DNA of 64,000 nucleotides from Rickettsiales bacterium (lineage in GTDB: Bacteria > Pseudomonadota > Alphaproteobacteria > Rickettsiales > UBA3002): positions 61-64,060 of the forward strand of contig JBIIEL010000007.1 of the NCBI GenBank assembly GCA_044237845.1, read 5' to 3'. A program made the position numbers and the translations under genes. Below, one piece after another: positions 125-63,639 of the stretch. Position 1 is the first letter of the stretch; each line of letters opens with the position of its first letter. The notes under the pieces were generated by a model. That model was not told the origin of the DNA and searched no databases. It saw nothing but the letters and a program-made list of their open reading frames with translations.

Positions 125-1159
125 ATGGCAGTTCCCGCAACATCTGAGAAAAAAGAAGATTACCGCAAGCTAACCGGCGCACAAAAAGCCGCGATTGTTC
201 TCATGTCGATCGATGAAGAAAATGCAACAAAAATTCTGACATCGATGAACGATGAGGAAATCAAAGAAATATCAAACACCATGGCCTCGCTTGGCTCGGT
301 GAGCGCCGACATTGTAGAGCGGTTATTTCTAGATCTTGTTGATTCCATGGCCTCCTCTGGCGTGGTGATAGGCACGTTTGATTCCACCGAACGCCTACTA
401 ACTAAGGCCCTCGGCAAAGACCGTGTTGATGGCATTATGGAAGATATCCGTGGCCCCGCCGGTCGCACCACGTGGGATAAACTCGGCAACGTAAATGAGG
501 AGGTGCTCGCGACGTTCCTCAAAAATGAATACCCACAAACCATTGCGTTGGTACTCACCAAAATCAAGCCAGAGCATGCCGCGCGCGTACTCTCGGTATT
601 CTCAGAGGAGCTTTCGCTCGATGTCATCACCCGCATGCTCGGCATGGAATCAGTCAAGAAAGAGGTGCTTGATGGCGTAGAAAAAACGCTTCGCCTCGAA
701 TTCATGAATAACCTCGCCAAAACGCAGCGCCGCGATACGCACGAAACTATGGCCGAAATCTTCAACAACTTCGACCGCGCGACCGAGACCAAATTTATGG
801 CAGTACTCGAACAGAAGAATGCCGAGTCTGCGGAGAAGATCCGTGCACTCATGTTCACCTTCGAAGACCTCAAGAAAGTCCACCCGGCAGGTGTTCAAAC
901 TCTGCTACGCGCGGTACCAAAAGAGAAACTAGGTCTTGCAATGAAAGGTGCATCCGAGGTTATCAAGGAGCTGTTCTTCAAGAATATGTCAGAGCGCGGT
1001 GCAAAATTGCTGCGTGAGGATATGGAGAGCATGGGCCCTGTACGTCTTAAAGATGTTGACGAAGCTCAGATGGCAATCGTCCAGGTGGCAAAAGATCTCG
1101 CCGCGAAGGGCGATATTGTTATCGGCGGTGATTCAGCAGATGATCAGTTGGTATATTAA
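125..1159 (+). CDS. fliG: Flagellar motor switch protein FliG
   Basis: 344 aa. Carries the [10 protein letters not shown] motif and a C-terminal torque-helix region ([28 protein letters not shown]). Position is between fliF and fliH. Confidence 0.92.
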
Positions 1160-9455: not shown

Positions 9456-10469
9456 GTGCCAATGAACGCACCTGCACGCATGACACAAAAACCCGCCGAC
9501 ATGGCCGCACTGCGCGCGCTGGTGGCGGACGATCTGGCACAGGTCAATCACCTCATTCTCGAACAGGGCCGCAGCGACATCACGCTGATTAACGACCTCG
9601 CGGCGCATATTATTGCGGCGGGTGGCAAGCGTTTGCGCCCCTCGCTCACCCTCGCGGCGGCGAAGCTGTGCGGATACGCGGGCGATCGCCATGTGCGCCT
9701 CGCGGCCTCGGTGGAGTTCATTCACACCGCCACCCTGCTGCATGACGACGTGGTGGATGCGAGCGATCTGCGCCGCGGCACCGCCACCGCCAACGCGGTG
9801 TGGGGCAATAAATCGAGCGTGCTGGTCGGCGATTTCCTGCTCAGCCGCGCGTTTCAGCTCATGGTGGCGGATGGTTCGCTCGATGCGCTCAAAATTCTGT
9901 CGGATGCTTCGGCGGTGATTTCGGCGGGTGAAGTGCATCAGCTGATGGTCAGCCACGACCTTGCCATCACCCAGGCGGTGTATGAGGAAGTGATCTCCGC
10001 CAAAACCGCGGCGCTGTTTGCTGCGGCGTGCGAGCTGGGCGCGGTGGTTTCTGGCCGCCCCGAGTGGCGCGAACCACTGCGGGCTTACGGCCAAGCGCTC
10101 GGCATGGCCTTCCAACTGGTGGATGACGCGCTCGACTACCAAGCCAGCGAGGCCGATCTCGGCAAAGCCATCGGCGACGATTTCCGCGATGGCAAAGTCA
10201 CCCTCCCCGTCATCCTCGCCTATGCTGATGCGACAGCCGAGGAGAAAAAATTCTGGCGAGCTGCGCTCGATGCGGGAGAAGCATTATCACCCGAGAATCT
10301 GACCCGCGCGAAGGAACTCATGTTGAAACACAACAGCTTCGACCGCACACTTCGTGTGGCGAATGAATTTGCTGCGCAGGCTGCAACGGCCCTCGCTCCA
10401 TTCACCGCTTCCCCTGCCAAAGCCGCGATGCTGGAAGCCGCGGAGTTTGCTGTGGGCAGAGGATTCTAA
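9456..10469 (+). CDS. ispB: All-trans polyprenyl (octaprenyl-type) diphosphate synthase
   Basis: 337 aa. Both aspartate-rich motifs are present (LLHDDVVD and FQLVDDALD). An alternative ATG start lies at 9462. Confidence 0.88.
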   Translation: MPMNAPARMTQKPADMAALRALVADDLAQVNHLILEQGRSDITLINDLAAHIIAAGGKRLRPSLTLAAAKLCGYAGDRHVRLAASVEFIHTATLLHDDVVDASDLRRGTATANAVWGNKSSVLVGDFLLSRAFQLMVADGSLDALKILSDASAVISAGEVHQLMVSHDLAITQAVYEEVISAKTAALFAAACELGAVVSGRPEWREPLRAYGQALGMAFQLVDDALDYQASEADLGKAIGDDFRDGKVTLPVILAYADATAEEKKFWRAALDAGEALSPENLTRAKELMLKHNSFDRTLRVANEFAAQAATALAPFTASPAKAAMLEAAEFAVGRGF

Positions 10470-10646: not shown

Positions 10647-10733
10647 CAGATGAGTGCAAGTAGAATATGTAAGGTATGAAGGTTGGAAATTAGCAGGATA
10701 ATTCCTGATGATTGATCCGACCATATCCTTAGA

Positions 10734-12211
<1,478 letters not shown>

Positions 12212-12660: not shown

Positions 12661-13473
12661 TTATTCCGGCTTCGCTTGAAAGTTGCTCATGAACAGCAGA
12701 AAGCAGGTCGGCGCCTCGCTCGTGGCAATATAGGCTGCCTCTTCCGGCGCATCCGACGATACGCATCGACCAACATTTATATCCATCCATGTCTGGGCAA
12801 ACGTGCGAATACCACCAAGCCCGGGCAGACCATTATCAAGTTTCGTATCCATCATAAGCGCTTCTGCTCCCGTCAGAATTGGCCCATACGGCGACGATGG
12901 ACGCACGCCGCCCATAATGATGATATTGTTATAATCCCCCACGTAATACTGTGTATCACCTGCTTGAGGCCCCCAGCTTTCAAACGCGAACACTGCGCCA
13001 GCGAGCGCTGTACGCGGCGCGTTAATGCCGGGAATTGCCTCAAGCATATCATTTGGTCCTGAGATACCAGTGTAAGCACCTGGAATCATTTCCGCAGCCG
13101 AAAGCTGTTGCCATGCGCGGAAAACCTCATTTCCACTAGCCCCACCAGGCTCAATGACACCATTGCCATCGCCATTACAGGTCAGCTTTCCTACGCTTAC
13201 ATCTGTGTCTGGCGTAGCACAATTCACCGTCGGATCGCCACCACCATCCGCATTGCCCCATACGCGTGTGGCCATCGGCATATCACCCGGAAGCGCGGAG
13301 TATTTGTCCAAAAATAATTGCTTGGCAATAGCATAGGCCTTTGCATCTTGGAGAGCGTTGCGCAGTTTTTGCGCATGCATCAACTCCCTCCCTGCAAACA
13401 CACCGCCCACCAGCAGGCCAATAATGACGAGCACAATCGCCAACTCAATCAGTGTAAATCCACGACGCGCCAT
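12661..13473 (-). CDS. Prepilin-type N-terminal cleavage/methylation domain protein (type IV pilin or T2SS pseudopilin-like), orphan
   Basis: The N-terminus MARRGFTLIELAIVLVIIGLLVGG is the classic G/FTLIE class III signal. 270 aa. No pilus or secretion genes are adjacent. Confidence 0.8.
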   Translation of the reverse strand: MARRGFTLIELAIVLVIIGLLVGGVFAGRELMHAQKLRNALQDAKAYAIAKQLFLDKYSALPGDMPMATRVWGNADGGGDPTVNCATPDTDVSVGKLTCNGDGNGVIEPGGASGNEVFRAWQQLSAAEMIPGAYTGISGPNDMLEAIPGINAPRTALAGAVFAFESWGPQAGDTQYYVGDYNNIIIMGGVRPSSPYGPILTGAEALMMDTKLDNGLPGLGGIRTFAQTWMDINVGRCVSSDAPEEAAYIATSEAPTCFLLFMSNFQAKPE

Positions 13474-14432: not shown

Positions 14433-14509
14433 CGCGGGGTGGAGCAGCCCGGTAGCTCGTTAGGCTCATAACCTAAAGGTCGTCGGTTCAAATCCGGCCC
14501 CCGCAACCA
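14433..14509 (+). tRNA. Initiator tRNA-fMet (anticodon CAT), CCA encoded
   Basis: CGCGGGGTGGAGCAGCCCGGTAGCTCGTTAGGCTCATAACCTAAAGGTCGTCGGTTCAAATCCGGCCCCCGCAACCA. It is near-identical in architecture to E. coli tRNA-fMet. C1 is opposite A72 (initiator hallmark). The anticodon stem has GG/CC next to the CTCATAA loop. Confidence 0.92.
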
Positions 14510-18986: not shown

Positions 18987-21767
18987 TTACGCCTGTTTGC
19001 GCGTGCGTTTTTTCTTATCCGGCGCAATAAGGGGGGCGGTGAGTTGCTGGTAGAGGGTGAATAGGTATTCGATGCGTTCGCGCTCACTGGTGAAAGCGGC
19101 TTTGCGGTAGGCGACATCTACGGCTTTGTCGAGGGCTTGATGGGCTTTTAGCAGTGGCGGCGGCATGGTGAGTGGGTCGTAGAGATCAGCCAGCGTGGAG
19201 TTTGGGAACTGTGCGCGTGCATCCAGCACCGCTTGCGCTTTTTCCTCAATCGCCTTCACCTGTGCATCGCTTGGCGCGGCTGGCCATGGGAAATTGTTAT
19301 ACACGAGCGTGTTAGAATAACGATAATCGCTTTTCAACCTGCCGCACACATAGCGCATCCAATCCATGTGCATTAGCGAGGTGAGTATGCCGAAATGGTA
19401 GAGCGTGGCGTTGGGGATGATAAGGCAGAGGTTGCTGGCAATAACATCGCGGCTAAAAATATCCATCGGCACATATAAGCGCCTTTCAGAAGAAACGGAC
19501 GGGATGATGATATAACCCGTTTCTTCGTGGCTAATAAAGCCAAACAGTTAGGGAGTGCTCGCCAGCTCTCTGGTTACTAGCCGCGAACTCTCAAGTCTAT
19601 TTTTTCTGACATATTCCAGCCTCTCAATAATAGGCTTGACATTGCGGTAAGCTGTCGGAGAAACATTTTTAAGCCACAAGCAATAACGCACAGAGCCGTT
19701 AATCAATTCTTCTGCGCCAACGAATTTACGAATCAGCGGAGCGGCATCTGGATAATGCGATACTATATCGTTTTTTTCCTGCTCACTTAAAATCAAGCCA
19801 CCACCATCAATAGGCTGATTGCCAAATTTGATTTCAGGAACATTACACAGCGGCTTGCTGCGTTTAACGATAACAGTGTTCCCTGCATCCACCAGATAGG
19901 GGTTGATGTTTTTGGCACTCAAGCGGTGCGGGTCAGCAGTGATGGTTTCGTAATCAAACAACCATTTTTCTTCAGGCTCATATGCTGCAAAGCCAACAAT
20001 CACGCAATATACGGCGGCGAGACGCATGCCCTTCGCCTTCTTTTCGTCAATCGTCCATTTGAAAGTGCGATGGGCAAAGTGAATATGGATGCCGTAACGC
20101 GATAGCATGGGCTGCCATAGAACGCCAGCTTGTTCACCCTGCGTGATGGAATTGGTGGAAACAAACGCCACTTTAATGCGCGTACCTTGAATATATTGTG
20201 CCGCTTTCCAATACCACGCCGTGACGTAATCCAGCACTCCAGCGCCCTTAATGTCGCCAAAGACTGCCACAAGATCTGCACGTTGCGTTTCATTCTGATA
20301 TTTTGAGCCCACAAACGGCGGATTGCCCAGCATGTAGCTGAGTTTGCTCGGCGCGATAACATCTTTCCAACCGGTCGTCAGCGCGTTACCATGGGTGATG
20401 TTGGCTGATTTTTTGAGTGGTAGGCGCGTGAGTGCTTGCCCGAACGATTCCGAGAGCTTCATGTTCATCTGGTGGTCAGTCAGCCACATGGCTGCTTCGG
20501 CAATGTGCGCAGGGAATTCTTCAATCTCAATGCCGTAAAATTGGTCCACATCCACTTTGGAAAGCGTCTTTACATCCAGCTCTAGCTGACGTTTTGGGTA
20601 GAGTGCTTCCAGCACTTCCAGCTCCAGCAAGCGCAGCTCGCGGTATGCCAAAATCAAAAAGTTGCCGCAGCCGCAGGCAGGGTCAAAAAAAGTAAGCGTG
20701 CCAAGTTTGGTGTGGAATTTTTCAATCTGGCTTTTACGCTGCGTGGATTTGCTGTCGCGTATTTTCTCAAATTCTTCGCGCAGCTCATCCAGAAAAAGCG
20801 GGTGAATGGTTTTCAGGATATTGCGCTCAGAGGTGTAATGCGCGCCGCCTTTGCGCTGTTCTTCAGGCAGCATCACCATTTGAAATAGCGAGCCGAAAAG
20901 CGCAGGCGAGACCTTATTCCACTTAAAGCGGCAGCATTGCAGCAAGGCTTGGCGCATAGGCGCATCAAAACTGGGCGTGCGAATCAGGCCAGCGAACAGC
21001 TTGCCGTTTACATGCGGAAAATCGCGCAAATCTTCATCCAGCGTTTTCTGGCGTTTTTCGGGTGGTGTATCCAGAATTTCAAACAGGTGGATGAGGTTGG
21101 AGCCAAGGTCACGCCCATCCTCGCTGGTTTTGTTTTCGATGTAATGCAGGAAGCTATCGGGGTTAAAAATTCCCGTATCATCCGCAAACAGGCAGAACAT
21201 GAGGCGTACCAGCAGTTTTTCGAGATCAACACCCGTGTATCCGCTTTCTTCCAATCGTGCGTGCAGATTGCCCATGAGCGTTGCCGCTTCAATGTTCACC
21301 TCGGGCTGGTCTTTATATTGCTCAAGGTGATACCCTGCCACGAAGCCGAAATGACGGATATTGTCGGGCAGTTCGCTGAGAGAAAATGCGTATTCCTCAT
21401 TCGTTTCTAAATCGAGTAGCTCAAAACTTTGGAAATCGGAGAGCAAAATGTAGCGTGGGCGTTCGTAGTCCTTTAGGGCAAGGTAGTAATCGGTTGCCTG
21501 TGCGCGTGCTTTGGCAAGGTTGCGCCCTTGTGATTTTTGCTCCACCAACAGCGTGCCCGGCCAAAACAGGTCGATGAATCCCTGATTGCTGCTGGCAAGT
21601 TTCACGCGCTTTTCAAAATAGATATTCACGTCACGCGGCTTTTGCCCGAACACCTCGAAAAATTGATGATAAAACTGCCCCGTATCGCCTTTTTCATAGC
21701 CGCGCCCCTGCCACTCTTCGGCAAATCGTCCTGCGCGTGCGCGTATTTCGTTCCAGCTCAATGGCAT
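18987..21767 (-). pseudogene. MmeI-like type IIL (IIG) bifunctional restriction endonuclease/N6-adenine methyltransferase, interrupted by one in-frame TAA
   Basis: The N-terminus MPLSWNEIRARA...FFEVFG and DLFWPG...LVEQKS (nuclease), FFDPACGCGNFL, and GNPPFVGSKYQ (motif IV) match my recollection of MmeI. The stop at 19548-19550 (complement) is followed in the same frame by LFGFISHEETGYIIIPSVSSERRLYVPMDIF..., which aligns with MmeI ...STPMKFFYISQP..LLIPETSSENRQFIP. Confidence 0.85.
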
Positions 21768-21900
21768 AAGGCAGCTTTTATTGGTGTTAATTTTCTGCCT
21801 ACAACATATCACGACACTCCAACATTACTAGCCTTTGATGGCAAAAATATCTCATACATTGTATGAAGTTAGTGTTTCATCTCATCGGCGAAAATATTTC

Positions 21901-50700: not shown

Positions 50701-51291
50701 GCGCGTTACAGCACAGCGATTGCCGGAATCAAAGCCGCCGAAGCAGCGCTCGAAAGTACGAAGGCGACGGAAGCTGCCGCGCGGTTCTACCACAAACTGC
50801 TCGCCTATAAAGATGAGTATGAAGTGGCACGGCTTTATACGGACGGCAACTTCCTGAAGGAACTGAAAGCAACTTTCCAGGGCGATTACAAAATCCGCTT
50901 CAACCTCGCTCCACCGATCATGGAACAGAATGATCCTGCCACGGGGCGCCCGCGTAAGCGCGAGTTCGGTGCGTGGATGCTGCCTGTCTTCGGTATGCTG
51001 GCGAAGTTCAAGTTCCTGCGCGGCACAAAGCTCGATATTTTCGGCTACCACCACGACCGCCGCGCTGAGCGCAAACTCATTGCGGACTATGAGGCGGATA
51101 TGGCGCTAGTACAAAAAACGCTACGCAGCGACACGCTGGAGATTTGCGCTGAACTGCTTTCTGTGCCGGATGAGATTCGCGGCTATGGCCCCGTCAAGGA
51201 TGCAAGCCTTAAAAAAGCGCAAGCCAAACGCGCGGGGCTACGTGCGATGCTTGAAGGCGGCGTCACACACGCGCAGAAGAAAGCGGCTTAG
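47794..51291 (+). CDS. Indolepyruvate ferredoxin oxidoreductase family protein (fused alpha/beta, ~1165 aa)
   Basis: N-terminus MAQAALKSADVSLEDKFTLEEGQAYMSGLQAL..., TPP-binding region GDGTYFHSG and ferredoxin-like CEGCGDCSVQSNC. ATG at 47794 follows GAGGA. Confidence 0.9.
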   Translation: MAQAALKSADVSLEDKFTLEEGQAYMSGLQALARIAIVQRRRDIAAGLNTGGFISGYRGSPLGALDRELSHANRYYKDMDVKFLPGVNEDLAATAVWGTQQVGLIPGAKKDGVFGIWYGKAPGVDRSIDVMRHASANGTAPLGGVLAIVGDDHGCKSSTLSCQSDHVLYAMQMPLLYPESLSEFVEYGLLGIAMSRYSGCWTALKVTTATVETSGTVDLTREQREISMPTADEFTMPPGGLSIRLNDVPRDIDWRLQNYKLFACHAFARKNKIDRIVMDSPKPRFGIITAGKSYGDVRQALTDLGITDDVARDIGLRVYKVGMTWPMEPQGIKAAVEGLEEVLIVEEKREFIEYQLKQFVYNWEAGRRPATIVGKYDEKGDKLLPLENDHSVGMITHVISKRIARFYHNDKVETALKFYDDYNLREKNYLPPSQRKPYYCSGCPHNTSTKVPDGSFAMVGIGCHYMVQWMDRNSALCTHMGGEGVPWVGAAPFSDTKHIFANLGDGTYFHSGVLAIRQSIAAKVNITYKILYNDAVAMTGGQTVDGEMPVYRVAQQVIAEGVSKCWIVTENPELYNDRSNIPSAVRILPRQWMDNTQKEARETPGTTVIIYDQTCAAEKRRRRKRGKYPDPAKRVFINKAVCEGCGDCSVQSNCMAVQPVETEYGRKRAINQSMCNKDFSCLKGFCPSFVTVLGGEPKKTKAGSVDDMFSMIPDAAVPEMGNDAYNIMVTGIGGTGVLTIGGLLGMASHLEGKHCRVLDQTGLAQKGGEVLSHVRLAKSLDSISTGHITTGGSDLLLACDVVASVGKTAHETLNPARTKAIINTDNTPVAEFVTNNNVDFHQAQVRGEILAATVKDGQHFVPASSYAMVLMGDEIATNVFMLGYAWQQGLIPLSRANIERAIELNGVAIPANKKAFNFGRLAAHNPQAIEKMMADVRGEVQEEPVAQTLEEIIRKRTAYLTDYQDAAYAARYSTAIAGIKAAEAALESTKATEAAARFYHKLLAYKDEYEVARLYTDGNFLKELKATFQGDYKIRFNLAPPIMEQNDPATGRPRKREFGAWMLPVFGMLAKFKFLRGTKLDIFGYHHDRRAERKLIADYEADMALVQKTLRSDTLEICAELLSVPDEIRGYGPVKDASLKKAQAKRAGLRAMLEGGVTHAQKKAA

Positions 51292-51881
51292 CGAATATAA
51301 TACTTCCGGCCAGATTCCATCGCCCATGTGGCACCTTGCGCGTGAGAGGCTGGAGTGAGTAGACCGTCCCTGCGTGTCATTGCGCTGGCGGGGAATTGTT
51401 CTGTCATCACGAGCCGTAGGTAAGGAAGCTCACCTTCTACAATCACATGGCTCTTGCGGCCAACATCAATCGATTCCACAAGCTTTGACCATACCCGAAG
51501 GCGCTCGGCAACATCTGTCCCCGCCGCATGCATTGCATCCAGCGCATTGAATACTTTAAGTTGATAGGGATTGAGCCGCATCACGCGCTCGCCCACAAAC
51601 AACAGTGCTCCTTCGCGCCGATAAACCGTCCATGGATGCATATGGTTAAACGGCTCGATACTGTGGCGAATGCTGAAGTTTGGCATATCGATCCGCCCCT
51701 CAATGCGCAGCACCATTACTGCTTCCATTGTCAGTGGCAGCCCCAAATTCAACGCATCATAATTGGTAAGCGCGGAAACCTCCGCATGAGTAAATCGTTT
51801 CGTGTGCGGTGCGACGCCATTCTCACTAGGAGGAAACGTGACTTCTATCCCAATCGCATCATGGTGGAATGGCGCGCTCAT
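51288..51881 (-). CDS. Hypothetical soluble protein (197 aa), third gene of the stator-like module
   Basis: ATGA overlap with the upstream MotB-like gene. No TM segment or catalytic motif recognised. Its stop overlaps the convergent oxidoreductase stop. Confidence 0.55.
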   Translation of the reverse strand: MSAPFHHDAIGIEVTFPPSENGVAPHTKRFTHAEVSALTNYDALNLGLPLTMEAVMVLRIEGRIDMPNFSIRHSIEPFNHMHPWTVYRREGALLFVGERVMRLNPYQLKVFNALDAMHAAGTDVAERLRVWSKLVESIDVGRKSHVIVEGELPYLRLVMTEQFPASAMTRRDGLLTPASHAQGATWAMESGRKYYIR

Positions 51882-52567
51882 GGCTGCGACTGCTCCATAT
51901 TATTCGCGCGCATGGTAAACCGCACGTCAATGCGGCGATTTGGATCAAGCACATAGGTCACCACCGGACGACGATCCGCATAGGCACTCACACCCACCAG
52001 TGGCTGATGATTGGGGTTCATAATCGCCTGCTCCAATTCAGGGGCTGCTTCCATCATTTTTTTATACACCGCGATAGAACGGAACGCCGAAAGCTCCCAG
52101 TTTGTAAATCCTTGGGGACTGTTAAACGGTCGATTATCCGTATGTCCTTCCACCAGCACCGTATCGAGCATCACCGGTTGTTTCTCCCACTTGCAGGGAC
52201 TGGTGGATTCCGACGCGCAAGGCAGAATTTCCTGCATCACTATCGCCAGCGATTCAACTGCCTTCTGGCCTTCTGGCAGTAACGTCCACTGGCCAGAATC
52301 AAACAGAAGCGATTCAGGGAGCCTCACTACACCATTTGTAAAATCAAGCGTCACAGGCGTACCGCGCTCTTTCATGCGTCGCTCAATCTCACGCAGAATA
52401 TTCGCACGTATTTGCTCGGTAATAATGACAGGCTTTGACGTTTCCGACTGCTTCATATTCAGCGCGAACACCATCAGTAGCAGGATAAAAAGAAAGATAA
52501 CCCCCACTAGTAAATCAGTGAACGAGGTGAAGAAATGCTCAGTGGATTCTTCCGTATCTTGGCTCAT
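51878..52567 (-). CDS. MotB-like / OmpA-family peptidoglycan-binding protein
   Basis: N-terminal TM with an Asp (FTSFTDLLVGVIFLFILLLMVF). OmpA-like C-domain (VVRLPESLLFDSG, VLVEGHTDNRPF, NWELSAFRSIAV, NRRIDVRF). Confidence 0.8.
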   Translation of the reverse strand: MSQDTEESTEHFFTSFTDLLVGVIFLFILLLMVFALNMKQSETSKPVIITEQIRANILREIERRMKERGTPVTLDFTNGVVRLPESLLFDSGQWTLLPEGQKAVESLAIVMQEILPCASESTSPCKWEKQPVMLDTVLVEGHTDNRPFNSPQGFTNWELSAFRSIAVYKKMMEAAPELEQAIMNPNHQPLVGVSAYADRRPVVTYVLDPNRRIDVRFTMRANNMEQSQP

Positions 52568-52568
52568 G

Positions 52569-53342
52569 CTAGCGGCTCTGGTTCAGCTGAAGCGTCACTT
52601 CCGTCGCAATATCCTCGGCAAGACGTGCATAGCCGCGCGTGGTTTGCTCCTGCGCGATCAGCCACTGGTAAAGCAACTGCTCGGTGGTGATCAGCTGCGT
52701 ACGATTCTCCATCGCCGAACAGAAGTGGTGAATCTGCATATTTACCCGGTTCAACCATGCTTTCTGAATGAACGAGAGAACAATGCTCAGCGAAATCCCA
52801 GCTACGGAGCTGATGAATTTCAGACTCGCCACATCAAGCAGCTGTACAAGCGCTTGCTGAGTGTGGGTGATATCCACCCCTTGCCCCAACCCGTTAGCGG
52901 CAATTGCGATTGCCGCAACGAGGCCGATGAAGGTAAAAAACAGGCCAAGGCTGATAAGATAACCCGGCATTGCCGTGTAAAGCCGTAAGTTGATGCGTGG
53001 CGCAACGAGACTGCTTGTGTTAAAAAATTCCTGCGGACGACGCGTAATACGCACCAGCAGTCGCGCACTATCGAGCACCACAGTTTTTGAAAATTCTACC
53101 CACGGATTGGTGAAAAGGGATTCTTTACTGAAACGATCACCCAGGCTCTCGAATTGCTCATAAAACGCTTCTGAATTCGTTGTAGATTCGATGATACCCG
53201 TCGCCCGCGTTACCGCAACACGTACCGCGTTTAAGCGCACCCAGCCCTCCAGCATCGCATAGAGAAATGCAAGTAGAATAACCCCACAGAACACATACGG
53301 AGCATTCGGCGAAGAAAGGAAGTTAATGATCGACAGCCACAC
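52569..53342 (-). CDS. MotA/TolQ/ExbB-like proton-channel family protein (257 aa)
   Basis: GTG start follows GAGGTG. Three predicted TMs: YVFCGVILLAFLYAMLEGWV; MPGYLISLGLFFTFIGLVAAIAIAA; FISSVAGISLSIVLSFI. It has ExbB-like spacing and a ~60-aa C-terminal tail. Confidence 0.65.
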   Translation of the reverse strand: MWLSIINFLSSPNAPYVFCGVILLAFLYAMLEGWVRLNAVRVAVTRATGIIESTTNSEAFYEQFESLGDRFSKESLFTNPWVEFSKTVVLDSARLLVRITRRPQEFFNTSSLVAPRINLRLYTAMPGYLISLGLFFTFIGLVAAIAIAANGLGQGVDITHTQQALVQLLDVASLKFISSVAGISLSIVLSFIQKAWLNRVNMQIHHFCSAMENRTQLITTEQLLYQWLIAQEQTTRGYARLAEDIATEVTLQLNQSR

Positions 53343-53404
53343 AGGTCACCTCACAGGTTAAAGAGCCGCATTTTCTAGCAGCATCCCAGAAAAAGACCAG
53401 ATTT

Positions 53405-62559: not shown

Positions 62560-63639
62560 TTAAGTGTTTAGCAGCCGAACCGAAATCACCTGATTTCCTT
62601 CCACTCGCGCCAGCCCCACCAATTGCCCCTGATGCAGCACCGCAAGCAGTGGCGTATCAGGATAGTGAGAAGCCAACGTTACCCGTTGACCATGGCGCAG
62701 TGTGTTCACCTGCCCGCCCTCCAATGCCAGTGCCGGGATGTCGTCCAGCGCGGCGTGAAGCGGCGTAAGCCCGAGGAAAGCTTCTCCCCCAAGCGGTGGC
62801 GCGTTATGCACCGATTCGGCCAGAAAATCCAGCGAAATCGCATCACGATCGGTGAAGGGCCCCACCGCTGCCCGGTGCAGGCGCGAGATATAGCCCTCCG
62901 AGCCCAGCGCATGCGCAATATCACGACCTAAGCTCCTGATATATGTACCTTTGGATACTTTGGCGCGAAATTCCGCGGTTTTCAAAGTGGGTAAGCCCTC
63001 ACCCGGAGCGCCCCAAAGCGCTCCGACCTCTCCCAAGGGAGAGGTAACCGAGTGTGCGTTATTGTTTGAATACAAGAGGTGACGCGGCGTCACCTCTCCC
63101 TTGGGAGAGGTCTGAATTTGCTCTTGGGCAAATTCAGGGTGAGGGCTGGCGCAGGAAAACCCCAAAAACTCCAGCGCATAAATCGTCACTGGCCGCGGCT
63201 GAAGCACCACCTCCTCCCCCGCGCGGGCAAGGTCGTAGGCGCGTTTTCCGGCAACTTTGAGGGCGGAATAAGCCGGGGGAAGCTGCATCACCGTGCCGGT
63301 GAAGGCAGGTAAGATACTGCGTATCTCGGTTTCCGTTGGAATCTTATCCGAGGTCGCGACCACCTCCCCTTCCGCGTCATCCGTCGCGCGACGCTCGCCG
63401 AAGGTCACGGCAAATTCATAGGTTTTCTTGGCATCCATCAGCAGATTCACGCATTTGGTGCCCTCGCCGAGCGCGAGTGGCAGCACGCCCGTAGCCAGCG
63501 GGTCGAGCGTCCCCGCATGGCCGATTTTCTGCGGCCTCAGCAGCCACTTCACCTTATTCACCGCATCCGCAGAGGTGATGCCCAGCGGCTTAGAGAGATT
63601 AATCCAGCCGTTGATGGCGTTTTTGTTTTGTTTTTTCAT
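62560..63639 (-). CDS. truB: tRNA pseudouridine(55) synthase TruB, carrying an in-frame ~50-aa insertion
   Basis: [32 protein letters not shown] and SKGTYIRSL. 359 aa, against ~300-315 typical. The extra segment lies between [10 protein letters not shown] and [17 protein letters not shown]. Confidence 0.92.
62994..63147. mobile_element. Nested-palindrome (MITE/RPE-like) element inserted in frame within truB
   Basis: 11-bp terminal inverted repeats, AGCCCTCACCC and GGGTGAGGGCT. Internal hairpins: GGAGCGC/GCGCTCC, ACCTCTCCC-AA-GGGAGAGGT, AGGTGACGC/GCGTCACCT, ACCTCTCCC-TT-GGGAGAGGT and CTGAATTTGC/GCAAATTCAG. Confidence 0.7.

What the first reader, a model, noticed from the sequence alone, without database searches (positions are those of the whole stretch)
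51288..53342. Compact three-gene stator-like module (ExbB/MotA-like channel + MotB/OmpA-like anchor + unknown soluble protein) away from the flagellar genes
Seen in the sequence:
- Three co-directional minus-strand ORFs are packed as one unit. There is a 1-nt gap at 52567/52569 and an ATGA overlap at 51878-51881.
- ORF1 (257 aa) has an ExbB/TolQ-like three-TM layout with the GLFFTFIG-type TM2.
- ORF2 (229 aa) has a MotB-type N-terminal TM containing the Asp (FTSFTDLL) plus an OmpA peptidoglycan-binding domain.
- ORF3 (197 aa) is soluble and has no motif I can recognise.
- The ORF3 stop overlaps the stop of the convergent oxidoreductase gene, so no terminator lies between them.

Established knowledge: MotAB, ExbBD, TolQR and ZorAB are 5:2 ion-driven rotary motors. 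Zorya anti-phage systems couple a ZorAB stator to soluble effectors.

Inference:
- This is unlikely to be the flagellar stator. It is 45 kb from the fli/flh block and the channel protein is ExbB-sized.
- It is unlikely to be a Ton or Tol system. The partner has an OmpA domain rather than an ExbD/TolR fold, and there is no tonB, tolA or pal nearby.
- It also lacks the long ZorA tail.
- It may therefore be a minimal PMF-powered envelope-sensing or defence module with a new effector.
Basis: partly seen in the sequence, partly recalled or inferred. Interest (0 to 1): 0.75.

Follow-up and report, generated by a model that had tools for sequence, protein, structure and literature searches.

The report
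Tail-less, nuclease-less Zorya-type motor module
These three genes are a stripped-down relative of the Zorya anti-phage system: a proton-driven membrane motor that has lost its long signalling tail and its DNA-cutting parts but keeps a small piece of the nuclease as a separate protein. The module is conserved in a group of uncultured alphaproteobacteria, which challenges the published view that the tail is universal and indispensable.

Summary
They are not ExbB-like and ORF3 is not an orphan; all three derive from type I Zorya.

- ORF1 is a ZorA that keeps the membrane motor, the Zorya-type cytoplasmic domain and a ~40-residue tail stub. Canonical ZorA is 560-730 aa.
- ORF2 is a complete ZorB with the channel Asp and peptidoglycan-binding motifs intact.
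- ORF3 is a free-standing copy of the extreme N-terminal ~200 residues of the ZorD nuclease. Sequence profiles and the only significant fold match (E. coli ZorD, 8QY7) agree.
- There is no ZorC, no Snf2/nuclease domain and no tail.

It is not a decayed remnant. The trio recurs intact in 11 distinct loci and at least 60 protein clusters. It sits in housekeeping neighbourhoods, and its divergence tracks that of its neighbours, which indicates vertical inheritance. The nearest relatives are canonical zorABCD systems in defence islands.

I found no published description of this form. The published survey reports long tails in all Zorya subtypes.

Most likely it is a peptidoglycan-anchored proton motor read out directly by ORF3, with a non-nuclease output. 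Whether it still defends against phage or has been repurposed is unresolved. I class it as a new variant of a known kind, of moderately high interest.

The parts
52569..53342 (-). zorA-core: tail-less ZorA (257 aa). It has three TM helices, a Zorya-type cytoplasmic domain with a beta-hairpin, and a ~40-residue C-terminal helix that corresponds to the base of the canonical tail.
   Evidence: It matches positions 11-261 of 636 in the best PADLOC ZorA1 profile at E 8e-40. It aligns to residues 1-255 of canonical 648-674-aa ZorAs. The AF2 model has pLDDT 83.5, and its top six PDB fold hits are all ZorA (8VVN, 8QYx; E <= 3e-6; TM 0.64-0.74), against ExbB/TolQ at E ~0.02 and MotA at 0.46. T137/S179 (E. 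coli T147/S184) and P126 (E. coli P136) are conserved. At least 60 homologue clusters are nearly all 250-260 aa. The stub is as conserved as TM3.
51878..52567 (-). zorB: full-length ZorB (229 aa) with an N-terminal TM helix carrying the channel Asp18 and an OmpA-like peptidoglycan-binding domain.
   Evidence: PADLOC ZorB1 at E 1e-67 over the full length. PDB 8VVN chain B (Shewanella type I ZorB) at E 8e-21 over the full length. It is 39% identical to ZorBs of canonical zorABCD loci. Invariant across nine family members: FTDLLVG, EGHTD, NWELSAFR (the N..L...R spacing of E. coli N152/L155/R159), PNRRID and two Cys.
51288..51881 (-). zorD-N: soluble 197-aa protein homologous to the extreme N-terminal ~200 residues of ZorD. 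It has no Snf2 helicase or nuclease domain.
   Evidence: PADLOC ZorD1 positions 70-216 of 1012 at E 2e-13. The family profile hits ZorD-sized proteins (920-1126 aa) at their residues ~60-200. BLASTP aligns it to residues 61-202 of the ZorD of a canonical locus. For the AF2 model (pLDDT 71), the only significant PDB fold hit is E. coli ZorD 8QY7 (E 5e-5, probability 1.00, TMq 0.55). Shared signature: LP 48-49, G62, F69, R89xG91, G97, R102, R127. Standalone homologues of 172-301 aa sit next to short ZorA/ZorB in every locus examined.
53343..53404 (-). 62-nt intergenic leader between the upstream methyltransferase gene and zorA-core, with a Shine-Dalgarno-like GAGGTGA at 53352..53346.
   Evidence: Read directly. 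No sigma-70-like promoter or terminator was called in it, so co-transcription with the upstream gene cannot be excluded. That gene is not linked to the trio in most other loci.

Best explanation
The three genes form a conserved, reduced relative of the type I Zorya system. ORF1 is a ZorA reduced to its membrane motor, its Zorya-type cytoplasmic domain and a ~40-residue stub of the tail. ORF2 is a complete ZorB. ORF3 is the N-terminal module of ZorD as a separate ~200-aa protein. ZorC, the ZorA tail and the Snf2/nuclease part of ZorD are absent. Proposed mechanism: five ZorA-core subunits surround two ZorB subunits in the inner membrane. ZorB's periplasmic domain binds peptidoglycan, and proton flow through Asp18 with the T137/S179 filter turns ZorA around ZorB, as in canonical ZorAB (inferred from intact functional residues). 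The motor's state is read directly at the short, highly conserved cytoplasmic stub or cytoplasmic domain by ORF3, instead of through a long tail (inferred from co-retention, translational coupling and stub conservation). No component can bind or cut DNA, so the output cannot be the local DNA degradation of canonical Zorya. Because the module is inherited vertically in housekeeping neighbourhoods at the same rate as its neighbours, I judge it most likely to be an exapted envelope-state sensor or transducer fixed in one alphaproteobacterial lineage. Step-by-step confidence: identity of the parts 0.9; assembles as a PMF-driven PG-anchored 5:2 motor 0.75; ORF3 is its direct partner 0.6; output is not nuclease-based 0.7; repurposed rather than still anti-phage 0.45 versus 0.4.
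For: Identity: PADLOC hits to ZorA1, ZorB1 and ZorD1. PDB sequence hits to 8VVN ZorA and ZorB. The fold matches are to ZorA only for ORF1 and to ZorD only for ORF3. ORF1 maps to residues 1-255 of canonical ZorA and ORF3 to residues 61-202 of canonical ZorD. Functional integrity: the ZorB Asp, the PG-binding motifs and two Cys are invariant; ZorA T137, S179 and P126 are conserved. Not a remnant: the trio is intact in 11 distinct loci with the same lengths and tight junctions. There are at least 60 short-ZorA clusters and about 59 ZorB clusters. No tail, ZorC or ZorD-CTD remnants occur in the window. The stub is as conserved as TM3. Relationship to type I: the next-nearest ZorBs (38-41% identity) sit in canonical zorABCD loci within defence islands. 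Vertical inheritance: there are four recurrent housekeeping contexts and no mobile or defence neighbours. ZorA/ZorB identity tracks the identity of neighbouring genes in all eight pairs compared. No viral contig carries the family.
Against: No experiment exists on any family member. In E. coli Zorya, deleting the whole tail (residues 223-729) abolished motor assembly and every tail truncation abolished defence (PMC11946911), so a tail-less ZorA might not assemble; here, though, the first ~40 tail residues are retained. ZorD recruitment in E. coli needed the tail tip, which argues against the ZorD N-module docking on the motor core. A direct ORF1/ORF2-ORF3 interaction was not tested because no multimer prediction was available. 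ORF3 evolves 15-25 percentage points faster than ZorA/ZorB, which could equally reflect an arms race with phage. All carriers are metagenome-assembled genomes, and whether the module is universal within its clade is unknown. The ORF3 model is only moderately confident (pLDDT 71; C-terminal 55 residues poor).
Confidence: 0.55

Rival explanations
1. The parts are the same, but the module is still an anti-phage system: a minimal Zorya subtype. Phage-induced envelope damage lets ZorB grip peptidoglycan and the motor opens. With no tail load and no nuclease, defence would come either from proton leak and membrane depolarisation (abortive infection, with ORF3 as a brake or clutch) or from ORF3 recruiting an unlinked host nuclease.
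For: Every characterised ZorAB is a defence component, and all three genes derive from a defence system. ORF3 evolves faster than the motor, as expected for a phage-facing component. The ZorD NTD is an autoinhibitory module in E. coli, which is compatible with a brake role.
Against: There are no defence-island, integrase or other mobile-element neighbours in any of 11 loci. Inheritance is vertical and rate-matched with housekeeping genes. Every DNA-targeting part has been lost. The depolarisation model was refuted for E. coli type I Zorya, and the tail is essential for defence there.
Confidence: 0.35
2. It is a decaying remnant of a type I Zorya operon: zorA truncated, zorC deleted and zorD cut down to its 5' end. 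It would be non-functional.
For: Each protein corresponds to only part of the canonical four-gene system.
Against: The same three gene lengths, order and overlapping junctions recur in 11 loci at 25-86% identity, without frameshifts. There are 48 invariant ORF3 columns and 52 invariant ORF1 columns across 39 sequences. The functional residues are intact, and the window holds no leftover fragments.
Confidence: 0.02
3. It is a second flagellar stator (a MotAB/PomAB paralogue) with an accessory protein.
For: The genome is flagellated. Some sources label ORF2 homologues 'MotB'. ORF2 shares the OmpA-like domain with MotB and PomB.
Against: The ORF1 fold matches MotA only at E 0.46 and TM 0.40, against ZorA at 4e-8. 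All NCBIfam MotB, MotS and MotD scores are far below their cut-offs. ORF1 has three TM helices plus the Zorya beta-hairpin rather than the MotA architecture. The trio is not linked to flagellar genes in any locus; one locus sits next to che genes only.
Confidence: 0.02
4. It is an ExbBD/TolQR-type energiser of an outer-membrane process.
For: ORF1 is about ExbB size with three TM helices, and it gives weak fold matches to ExbB and TolQ (E ~0.02).
Against: The partner has an OmpA-like PG-binding domain, not an ExbD/TolR fold. No tonB, tolA or pal lies nearby in the window or in the related loci. The ZorA matches are about five orders of magnitude better.
Confidence: 0.01

Closest known systems
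Type I Zorya (ZorABCD), e.g. E. coli NCTC 9026 EcZorI (PDB 8QYD ZorAB, 8QY7 ZorD) and Shewanella sp. ANA-3 ZorAB (8VVN)
   Same: The ZorA motor core with the T/S ion filter and the Zorya-specific cytoplasmic beta-hairpin domain. ZorB with the channel Asp and a PG-binding domain carrying the N..L...R motif and conserved Cys. The same A-B-(D) gene order on one strand. The third protein is homologous to the ZorD N-terminus.
   Different: ZorA is 257 aa instead of 560-730 aa and ends near E. coli residue 262, so it has no tail and no chemoreceptor-like tip. There is no ZorC (EH signature). 'ZorD' is only the first ~200 residues, without the rest of the NTD, the Snf2 ATPase or the Mrr nuclease. One Ca2+ ligand (E. 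coli E89) is an invariant Lys. The context is housekeeping and vertically inherited rather than a defence island.
Type II (ZorABE) and type III (ZorGABF) Zorya
   Same: A ZorAB-type motor combined with soluble partner(s).
   Different: PADLOC matches to ZorA2/ZorA3 and ZorB2/ZorB3 are far weaker than to type I. There is no ZorE HNH protein and no ZorF or ZorG. These types also have long ZorA tails (PMC11946911).
Flagellar stator MotAB/PomAB
   Same: The 5:2 ion-driven rotary architecture, and a B subunit with a channel Asp and an OmpA-like PG-binding domain.
   Different: MotA has four TM helices and a FliG-binding cytoplasmic domain, and MotB has a plug and linker. ORF1 is ZorA-type by sequence and fold, and ORF2 aligns full-length to ZorB and only through its OmpA-like domain to MotB/PomB.
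ExbBD / TolQR
   Same: A three-TM A subunit of similar size in a PMF-driven 5:2 motor.
   Different: The B subunit here has an OmpA-like domain rather than an ExbD/TolR fold. There is no TonB, TolA or Pal partner, and the fold similarity is weak (E ~0.02).

Membership tests
Type I Zorya (ZorABCD) | ZorA: a MotA/ExbB-superfamily TM motor with the Zorya-specific cytoplasmic domain (beta-hairpin) | tested here: met
   PADLOC ZorA1 at 8e-40. Fold hits to ZorA only at E <= 3e-6. Beta-strands at 88-90 and 96-99 in the model. The feature is described in PMC12505986.
Type I Zorya (ZorABCD) | ZorA long cytoplasmic tail (reported in all subtypes; essential for defence in E. coli) | tested here: not met
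   ORF1 is 257 aa and covers only positions ~1-260 of ZorA profiles that are 487-727 long and residues 1-255 of canonical ZorAs. The whole family is ~250-260 aa.
Type I Zorya (ZorABCD) | ZorB: a TM helix with the essential Asp plus a PG-binding domain with PG-contact residues | tested here: met
   PADLOC ZorB1 at 1e-67 over the full length. 8VVN_B at 8e-21. D18, NWELSAFR and PNRRID are invariant.
Type I Zorya (ZorABCD) | ZorC with the EH signature domain | tested here: not met
   There is no EH_Signature gene in the trio loci. tblastn with three canonical ZorCs finds nothing in the window.
Type I Zorya (ZorABCD) | ZorD with an Snf2-related ATPase/nuclease domain (with or without Mrr) | tested here: not met
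   ORF3 is 197 aa and matches only ZorD positions ~60-216. It has no SNF2 hit in Pfam, and no ZorD-CTD match occurs elsewhere in the window.
Type I Zorya (ZorABCD) | Anti-phage activity that depends on PMF and on all components | not testable with these tools
   This needs phage challenge of a strain expressing the trio, with a D18N control.
Type I Zorya (ZorABCD) | Accessory-genome or defence-island distribution | tested here: not met
   The neighbours are housekeeping genes and the contexts recur. Divergence is rate-matched with the neighbours. The canonical relatives, by contrast, sit beside GmrSD, Dnd, TIR, BrxR and an integrase.
Flagellar stator MotAB/PomAB | MotA-type A subunit and an equivalog-level MotB | tested here: not met
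   The MotA fold hit is E 0.46. NCBIfam MotB, MotS and MotD scores are 26-41 bits against cut-offs of 253-312.
ExbBD/TolQR | A B subunit with the ExbD/TolR fold and a linked TonB or TolA/Pal | tested here: not met
   ORF2 has an OmpA-like domain, and there are no such neighbours.

The most novel reading that the evidence does not exclude
A Zorya-type 5:2 motor has been domesticated. In one lineage of uncultured alphaproteobacteria, the ZorAB core plus the ZorD N-terminal module became a vertically inherited, non-defence envelope-state sensor or transducer. This would be the first ZorAB-family motor with a housekeeping role. It would also be natural evidence that the ZorD N-terminal module is the element that couples effectors to the motor, and that a ~40-residue tail stub suffices for assembly.
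Probability: 0.35. Interest if true: 0.8.

Novelty: new variant of a known kind. Interest (0 to 1): 0.62.

Why it matters
Current models of Zorya hold that the long ZorA tail is universal, is needed for motor assembly and carries the signal to ZorC and ZorD. How ZorAB contacts its effectors is still unknown. A naturally tail-less, nuclease-less but strongly conserved ZorAB module offers three things. First, it defines a minimal ZorA (core plus ~40-residue stub) that evolution has kept functional. Second, it singles out the first ~200 residues of ZorD as the one piece worth keeping next to the motor. That gives a testable candidate for the motor-effector coupling interface: the LGLP and R-x-G signature residues. 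Third, it shows that a defence-derived 5:2 motor can become a stably inherited chromosomal module, either as a new kind of effector-less immunity or as an exapted envelope sensor.

Tried and rejected
- Local Pfam gave nothing for ORF1 and only a sub-threshold OmpA hit for ORF2. The precomputed family PF28082 'ZorA-like_t1' was not reported by the local copy.
- The ORF3 family profile against PDB sequences found no ZorD. The link needed fold comparison and the large profile search.
- The weak HepII_C Pfam hit (E 0.014) and the weak bacterial PH-domain fold hits (probability < 0.15) for ORF3 were set aside as noise.
- Viral collections held no short-ZorA relative and no ORF3-like viral structure. 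A phage origin or an anti-Zorya decoy is therefore not supported.
- PADLOC hits on neighbours (PycC to the Crp/Fnr regulator; mad2 to two methyltransferases) reflect generic domains, not defence systems.
- Intermediate-length ORF3-profile hits (338-745 aa) were checked as possible alternative fusions. They are ZorD fragments cut at contig ends.
- The 393-aa 'ZorA' of L022 is cut by the contig end. It is not an intermediate tail length.
- A neighbour-joining ZorB tree did not give clean monophyly of the trio clade: two canonical ZorBs fell inside it on a very short branch. The direction of evolution (reduction versus an ancestral minimal form) is therefore left open. Reduction is favoured only by the far wider distribution of type I.
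- The decayed-remnant, flagellar-stator and Ton/Tol readings were rejected (see the rival explanations).
- Literature searches for tail-less, minimal or type IV Zorya and for 'ZorA-like' found nothing relevant.


Full report
**1. Observation**

- ORF1: 52569..53342, 257 aa, GTG start.
- ORF2: 51878..52567, 229 aa.
- ORF3: 51288..51881, 197 aa.

The raw sequence shows 'cgcTAGcATGagc', one nucleotide between ORF1 and ORF2. It also shows 'ccATGAgc', a 4-nt overlap between ORF2 and ORF3. The ORF3 stop overlaps the stop of the convergent 1194-aa oxidoreductase gene, whose domains are POR, a TPP-binding domain and DUF6537. A GAGGTGA ribosome-binding site lies just upstream of ORF1's GTG.

**2. What the proteins are**

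Local Pfam was nearly silent. The defence-system library was unambiguous:

- ORF1 matches ZorA1 models at E 8e-40, but only their first ~260 of 487-727 positions.
- ORF2 matches ZorB1 over its full length at E 1e-67.
- ORF3 matches positions 70-216 of a 1012-position ZorD1 model at E 2e-13.

NCBIfam agrees for ZorA. All MotB, MotS and MotD models score far below their cut-offs.

Against solved structures, ORF1 and ORF2 hit the Shewanella type I ZorAB complex 8VVN best (E 8.5e-15 and 8.4e-21), followed by E. coli ZorA and ZorB.

An AlphaFold2 model of ORF1 has pLDDT 83.5. Its six top fold matches are all ZorA chains (E <= 3e-6, TM 0.64-0.74). ExbB and TolQ appear at E ~0.02 (TM 0.32-0.46) and MotA at E 0.46. 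The model contains the cytoplasmic beta-hairpin that distinguishes Zorya-type A subunits.

An AlphaFold2 model of ORF3 has pLDDT 71 and is good for residues 1-140. It has exactly one significant PDB match, E. coli ZorD 8QY7 (E 5e-5, probability 1.00, TMq 0.55).

An exhaustive profile search with the ORF3 family found about 18 short relatives. After those came ZorD-sized proteins of 920-1126 aa, always matched at their residues ~60-200. A joint alignment shows a shared signature: L48-P49 of 'LGLP', G62, F69, R89-x-G91, G97, R102 and R127. It also shows that ORF3 corresponds to the extreme N-terminus of ZorD, minus a ~35-45-residue insertion.

**3. Functional residues**

Mapping the alignment onto the E. 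coli numbering used by Hu et al. (PMC11946911) gives:

| E. coli ZorA residue | Role | ORF1 equivalent | Conservation in 39 family sequences |
|---|---|---|---|
| T147 / S184 | ion filter | T137 / S179 | both invariant |
| P136 | kink in cytoplasmic helix H3 | P126 | nearly invariant |
| E86 | Ca2+ ligand | E83 | invariant |
| E89 | Ca2+ ligand | K86 | invariant Lys |

ORF1 ends at about E. coli residue 262. It therefore keeps the first ~40 residues of the tail helix, including equivalents of the hydrophobic ring L250/L254/L258 (I245/V249/L253). This stub is as conserved as TM3 and more conserved than the cytoplasmic domain or TM1: mean majority fraction 0.80, against 0.77, 0.68 and 0.62.

In ZorB, these features are invariant in nine family members: the channel Asp (D18 in FTDLLVG), EGHTD, NWELSAFR (the N..L...R spacing of E. 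coli PG-contact residues N152/L155/R159), PNRRID and two Cys. ORF3 has no TM segment.

**4. A conserved family, not a remnant**

- ORF3 has standalone homologues of 172-301 aa.
- ORF1 has at least 60 homologue clusters, nearly all 250-260 aa.
- ORF2 has about 59 clusters at 45% identity or more.
- In every locus with enough sequence, the three genes are adjacent, co-directional and tightly coupled. These loci are L001/L010, L003/L011, L005, L006/L017, L007, L009/L016, L012, L013, L015 and L018, plus the window.
- All third genes are homologous to one another.
- The window contains no ZorC, ZorD-CTD or tail fragments.
- Intermediate-length hits are contig-end fragments of ZorD, and one apparent 393-aa ZorA is cut by a contig end. 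The ZorD N-module is thus seen in only two architectures: at the N-terminus of full ZorD, or free-standing beside a tail-less ZorAB.

**5. Relationship to canonical Zorya**

Below 45% identity, the ZorB hit list drops to about 40%. All five loci sampled there carry ZorB, an EH-signature ZorC of 455-471 aa and an SNF2 ZorD of 974-1129 aa, with or without Mrr. ZorA is 559-674 aa in the four loci where it is complete and is cut by the contig end in L022. Several have defence-island neighbours: GmrSD, DndB, TOTE/PIF1, TIR, BrxR and an integrase.

The trio is therefore a close relative of type I Zorya. Reduction from type I is the parsimonious reading, because type I is widespread whereas the trio is confined to nine alphaproteobacterial MAG species among 185,579 reference genomes. 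My neighbour-joining tree does not resolve the direction of change.

**6. Genomic behaviour**

The trio sits in four recurrent housekeeping contexts, each shared by at least two divergent genomes:

- next to an aminotransferase, PAP2, SecDF and TerC;
- between an S24 peptidase and Alpha-E/ATP-grasp genes;
- near L36, SLT and the H+-pyrophosphatase;
- near rRNA methyltransferase and pseudouridine synthase genes (the window and L016).

No integrase, transposase or bona fide defence gene is adjacent. No viral contig carries the family.

In all eight locus pairs that share flanks, ZorA/ZorB identity tracks neighbour identity. Examples: window versus L016, 66/67% against 60-71%; L005 versus L012, 86/84% against 69-91%. 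ORF3 is consistently 15-25 points more diverged. This is the pattern of vertical co-inheritance, unlike typical defence islands.

**7. Mechanism**

Shown: the parts, their homology, intact motor and PG-binding residues, conservation, and the absence of any DNA-binding or nuclease domain.

Inferred:

- The complex is a ZorA5:ZorB2 proton-driven, PG-anchored rotary unit.
- ORF3 binds the conserved stub or cytoplasmic domain and reads the motor's state directly.
- The output is not DNA degradation.

Whether the module still defends against phage or has been exapted as an envelope sensor is open. Defence could work by proton leak with abortive infection, or through an unlinked nuclease. I favour exaptation slightly (0.45 versus 0.4), because of the inheritance pattern and the clean loss of every DNA-targeting part.

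Points against: E. coli ZorA lacking residues 223-729 does not assemble, all tail truncations abolish defence, and ZorD recruitment needs the tail tip.

**8. Comparison with the literature**

[quoted passage not shown] Their survey used RefSeq and only canonical gene orders, so it would have excluded this family. The interface between ZorAB and ZorC/ZorD is undefined. Searches for tail-less, minimal, type IV or 'ZorA-like' Zorya found nothing.

A Pfam family named 'ZorA-like_t1' (PF28082) appears in precomputed annotations. It covers the motor domain of both short and canonical ZorAs, so the domain is catalogued but the architecture is not described.

**9. Verdict**

This is a real, conserved feature and a new variant of a known kind (Zorya). 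It fails the membership test for type I Zorya on three defining features: the tail, ZorC and the ZorD catalytic domain. It is clearly derived from, or sister to, type I. Interest is moderately high, for three reasons. It contradicts the presumed universality and necessity of the tail. It nominates the ZorD N-terminal module as the motor-coupling element. And it may be the first domesticated ZorAB motor.

Caveats: there is no experimental data, all carriers are MAGs, the ORF3 model is of moderate quality, and no multimer prediction was possible.

Noticed in passing
window 19548..21812 (-), with the adjacent ORF 18987..19472 (-): An MmeI-family type IIL restriction-modification enzyme (MmeI_N, MmeI_hel, MmeI_Mtase). 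Its target-recognition domain is cut at profile position 113 of 207 at the C-terminus, so it may be frameshifted or a pseudogene. It lies in a lower-GC stretch (~12-34 kb, GC 0.46-0.51 against 0.55-0.60 elsewhere) that may be a genomic island.
   Followed up: no
window 10733..12211 (-): A complete 16S rRNA gene with no 23S next to it. The lower-coordinate neighbour is a polyprenyl synthetase gene at 9456..10469 (+), so the rRNA genes are unlinked, as in several reduced or slow-growing alphaproteobacterial lineages. A tRNA lies at 14433..14506 (+).
   Followed up: no
window 62995..63047 (-) and 63090..63146 (+): Two copies of the Rfam 'whalefall-1' RNA motif in opposite orientation, 43 nt apart, inside or overlapping ORF 62560..63639 (-). 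Scores are 38 and 52 bits against a gathering score of 37.
   Followed up: no
window ORF1 residue K86 (codon within 52569..53342): The second Ca2+-coordinating glutamate of E. coli ZorA (E89; the E86A/E89A double mutant is non-functional) is an invariant lysine in the whole short-ZorA family, while the first (E86 = E83) is retained. A salt bridge may replace the Ca2+ site.
   Followed up: partly
L006/L017 7499..8392, and proteins P0083, P0085, P0090, P0096, P0099, P0103: A subfamily of ORF3 homologues of ~280-310 aa. It has an N-terminal insertion like that of ZorD and a ~70-residue C-terminal extension. It is found with the most divergent short ZorA/ZorB pairs (51/48% identity to the window).
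   Followed up: partly
L005 522..1043 and L012 5380..5895: A small Peptidase_S24 (LexA/UmuD-like, 171-173 aa) gene lies directly upstream of the trio on the same strand in two loci. It is not present in the other contexts.
   Followed up: no
window 12661..13473 (-): A 270-aa protein with a type IV pilin-like N-terminal methylation motif. A homologue (43% identity) lies on the trio-bearing contig L013 at 310..792.
   Followed up: no
window 52011..52988 (+) and 51528..51956 (+): Long antisense 'shadow' ORFs (325 and 142 aa) overlap zorA/zorB and ORF3. They appear conserved in other loci only because the sense genes are. They are not genes.
   Followed up: yes
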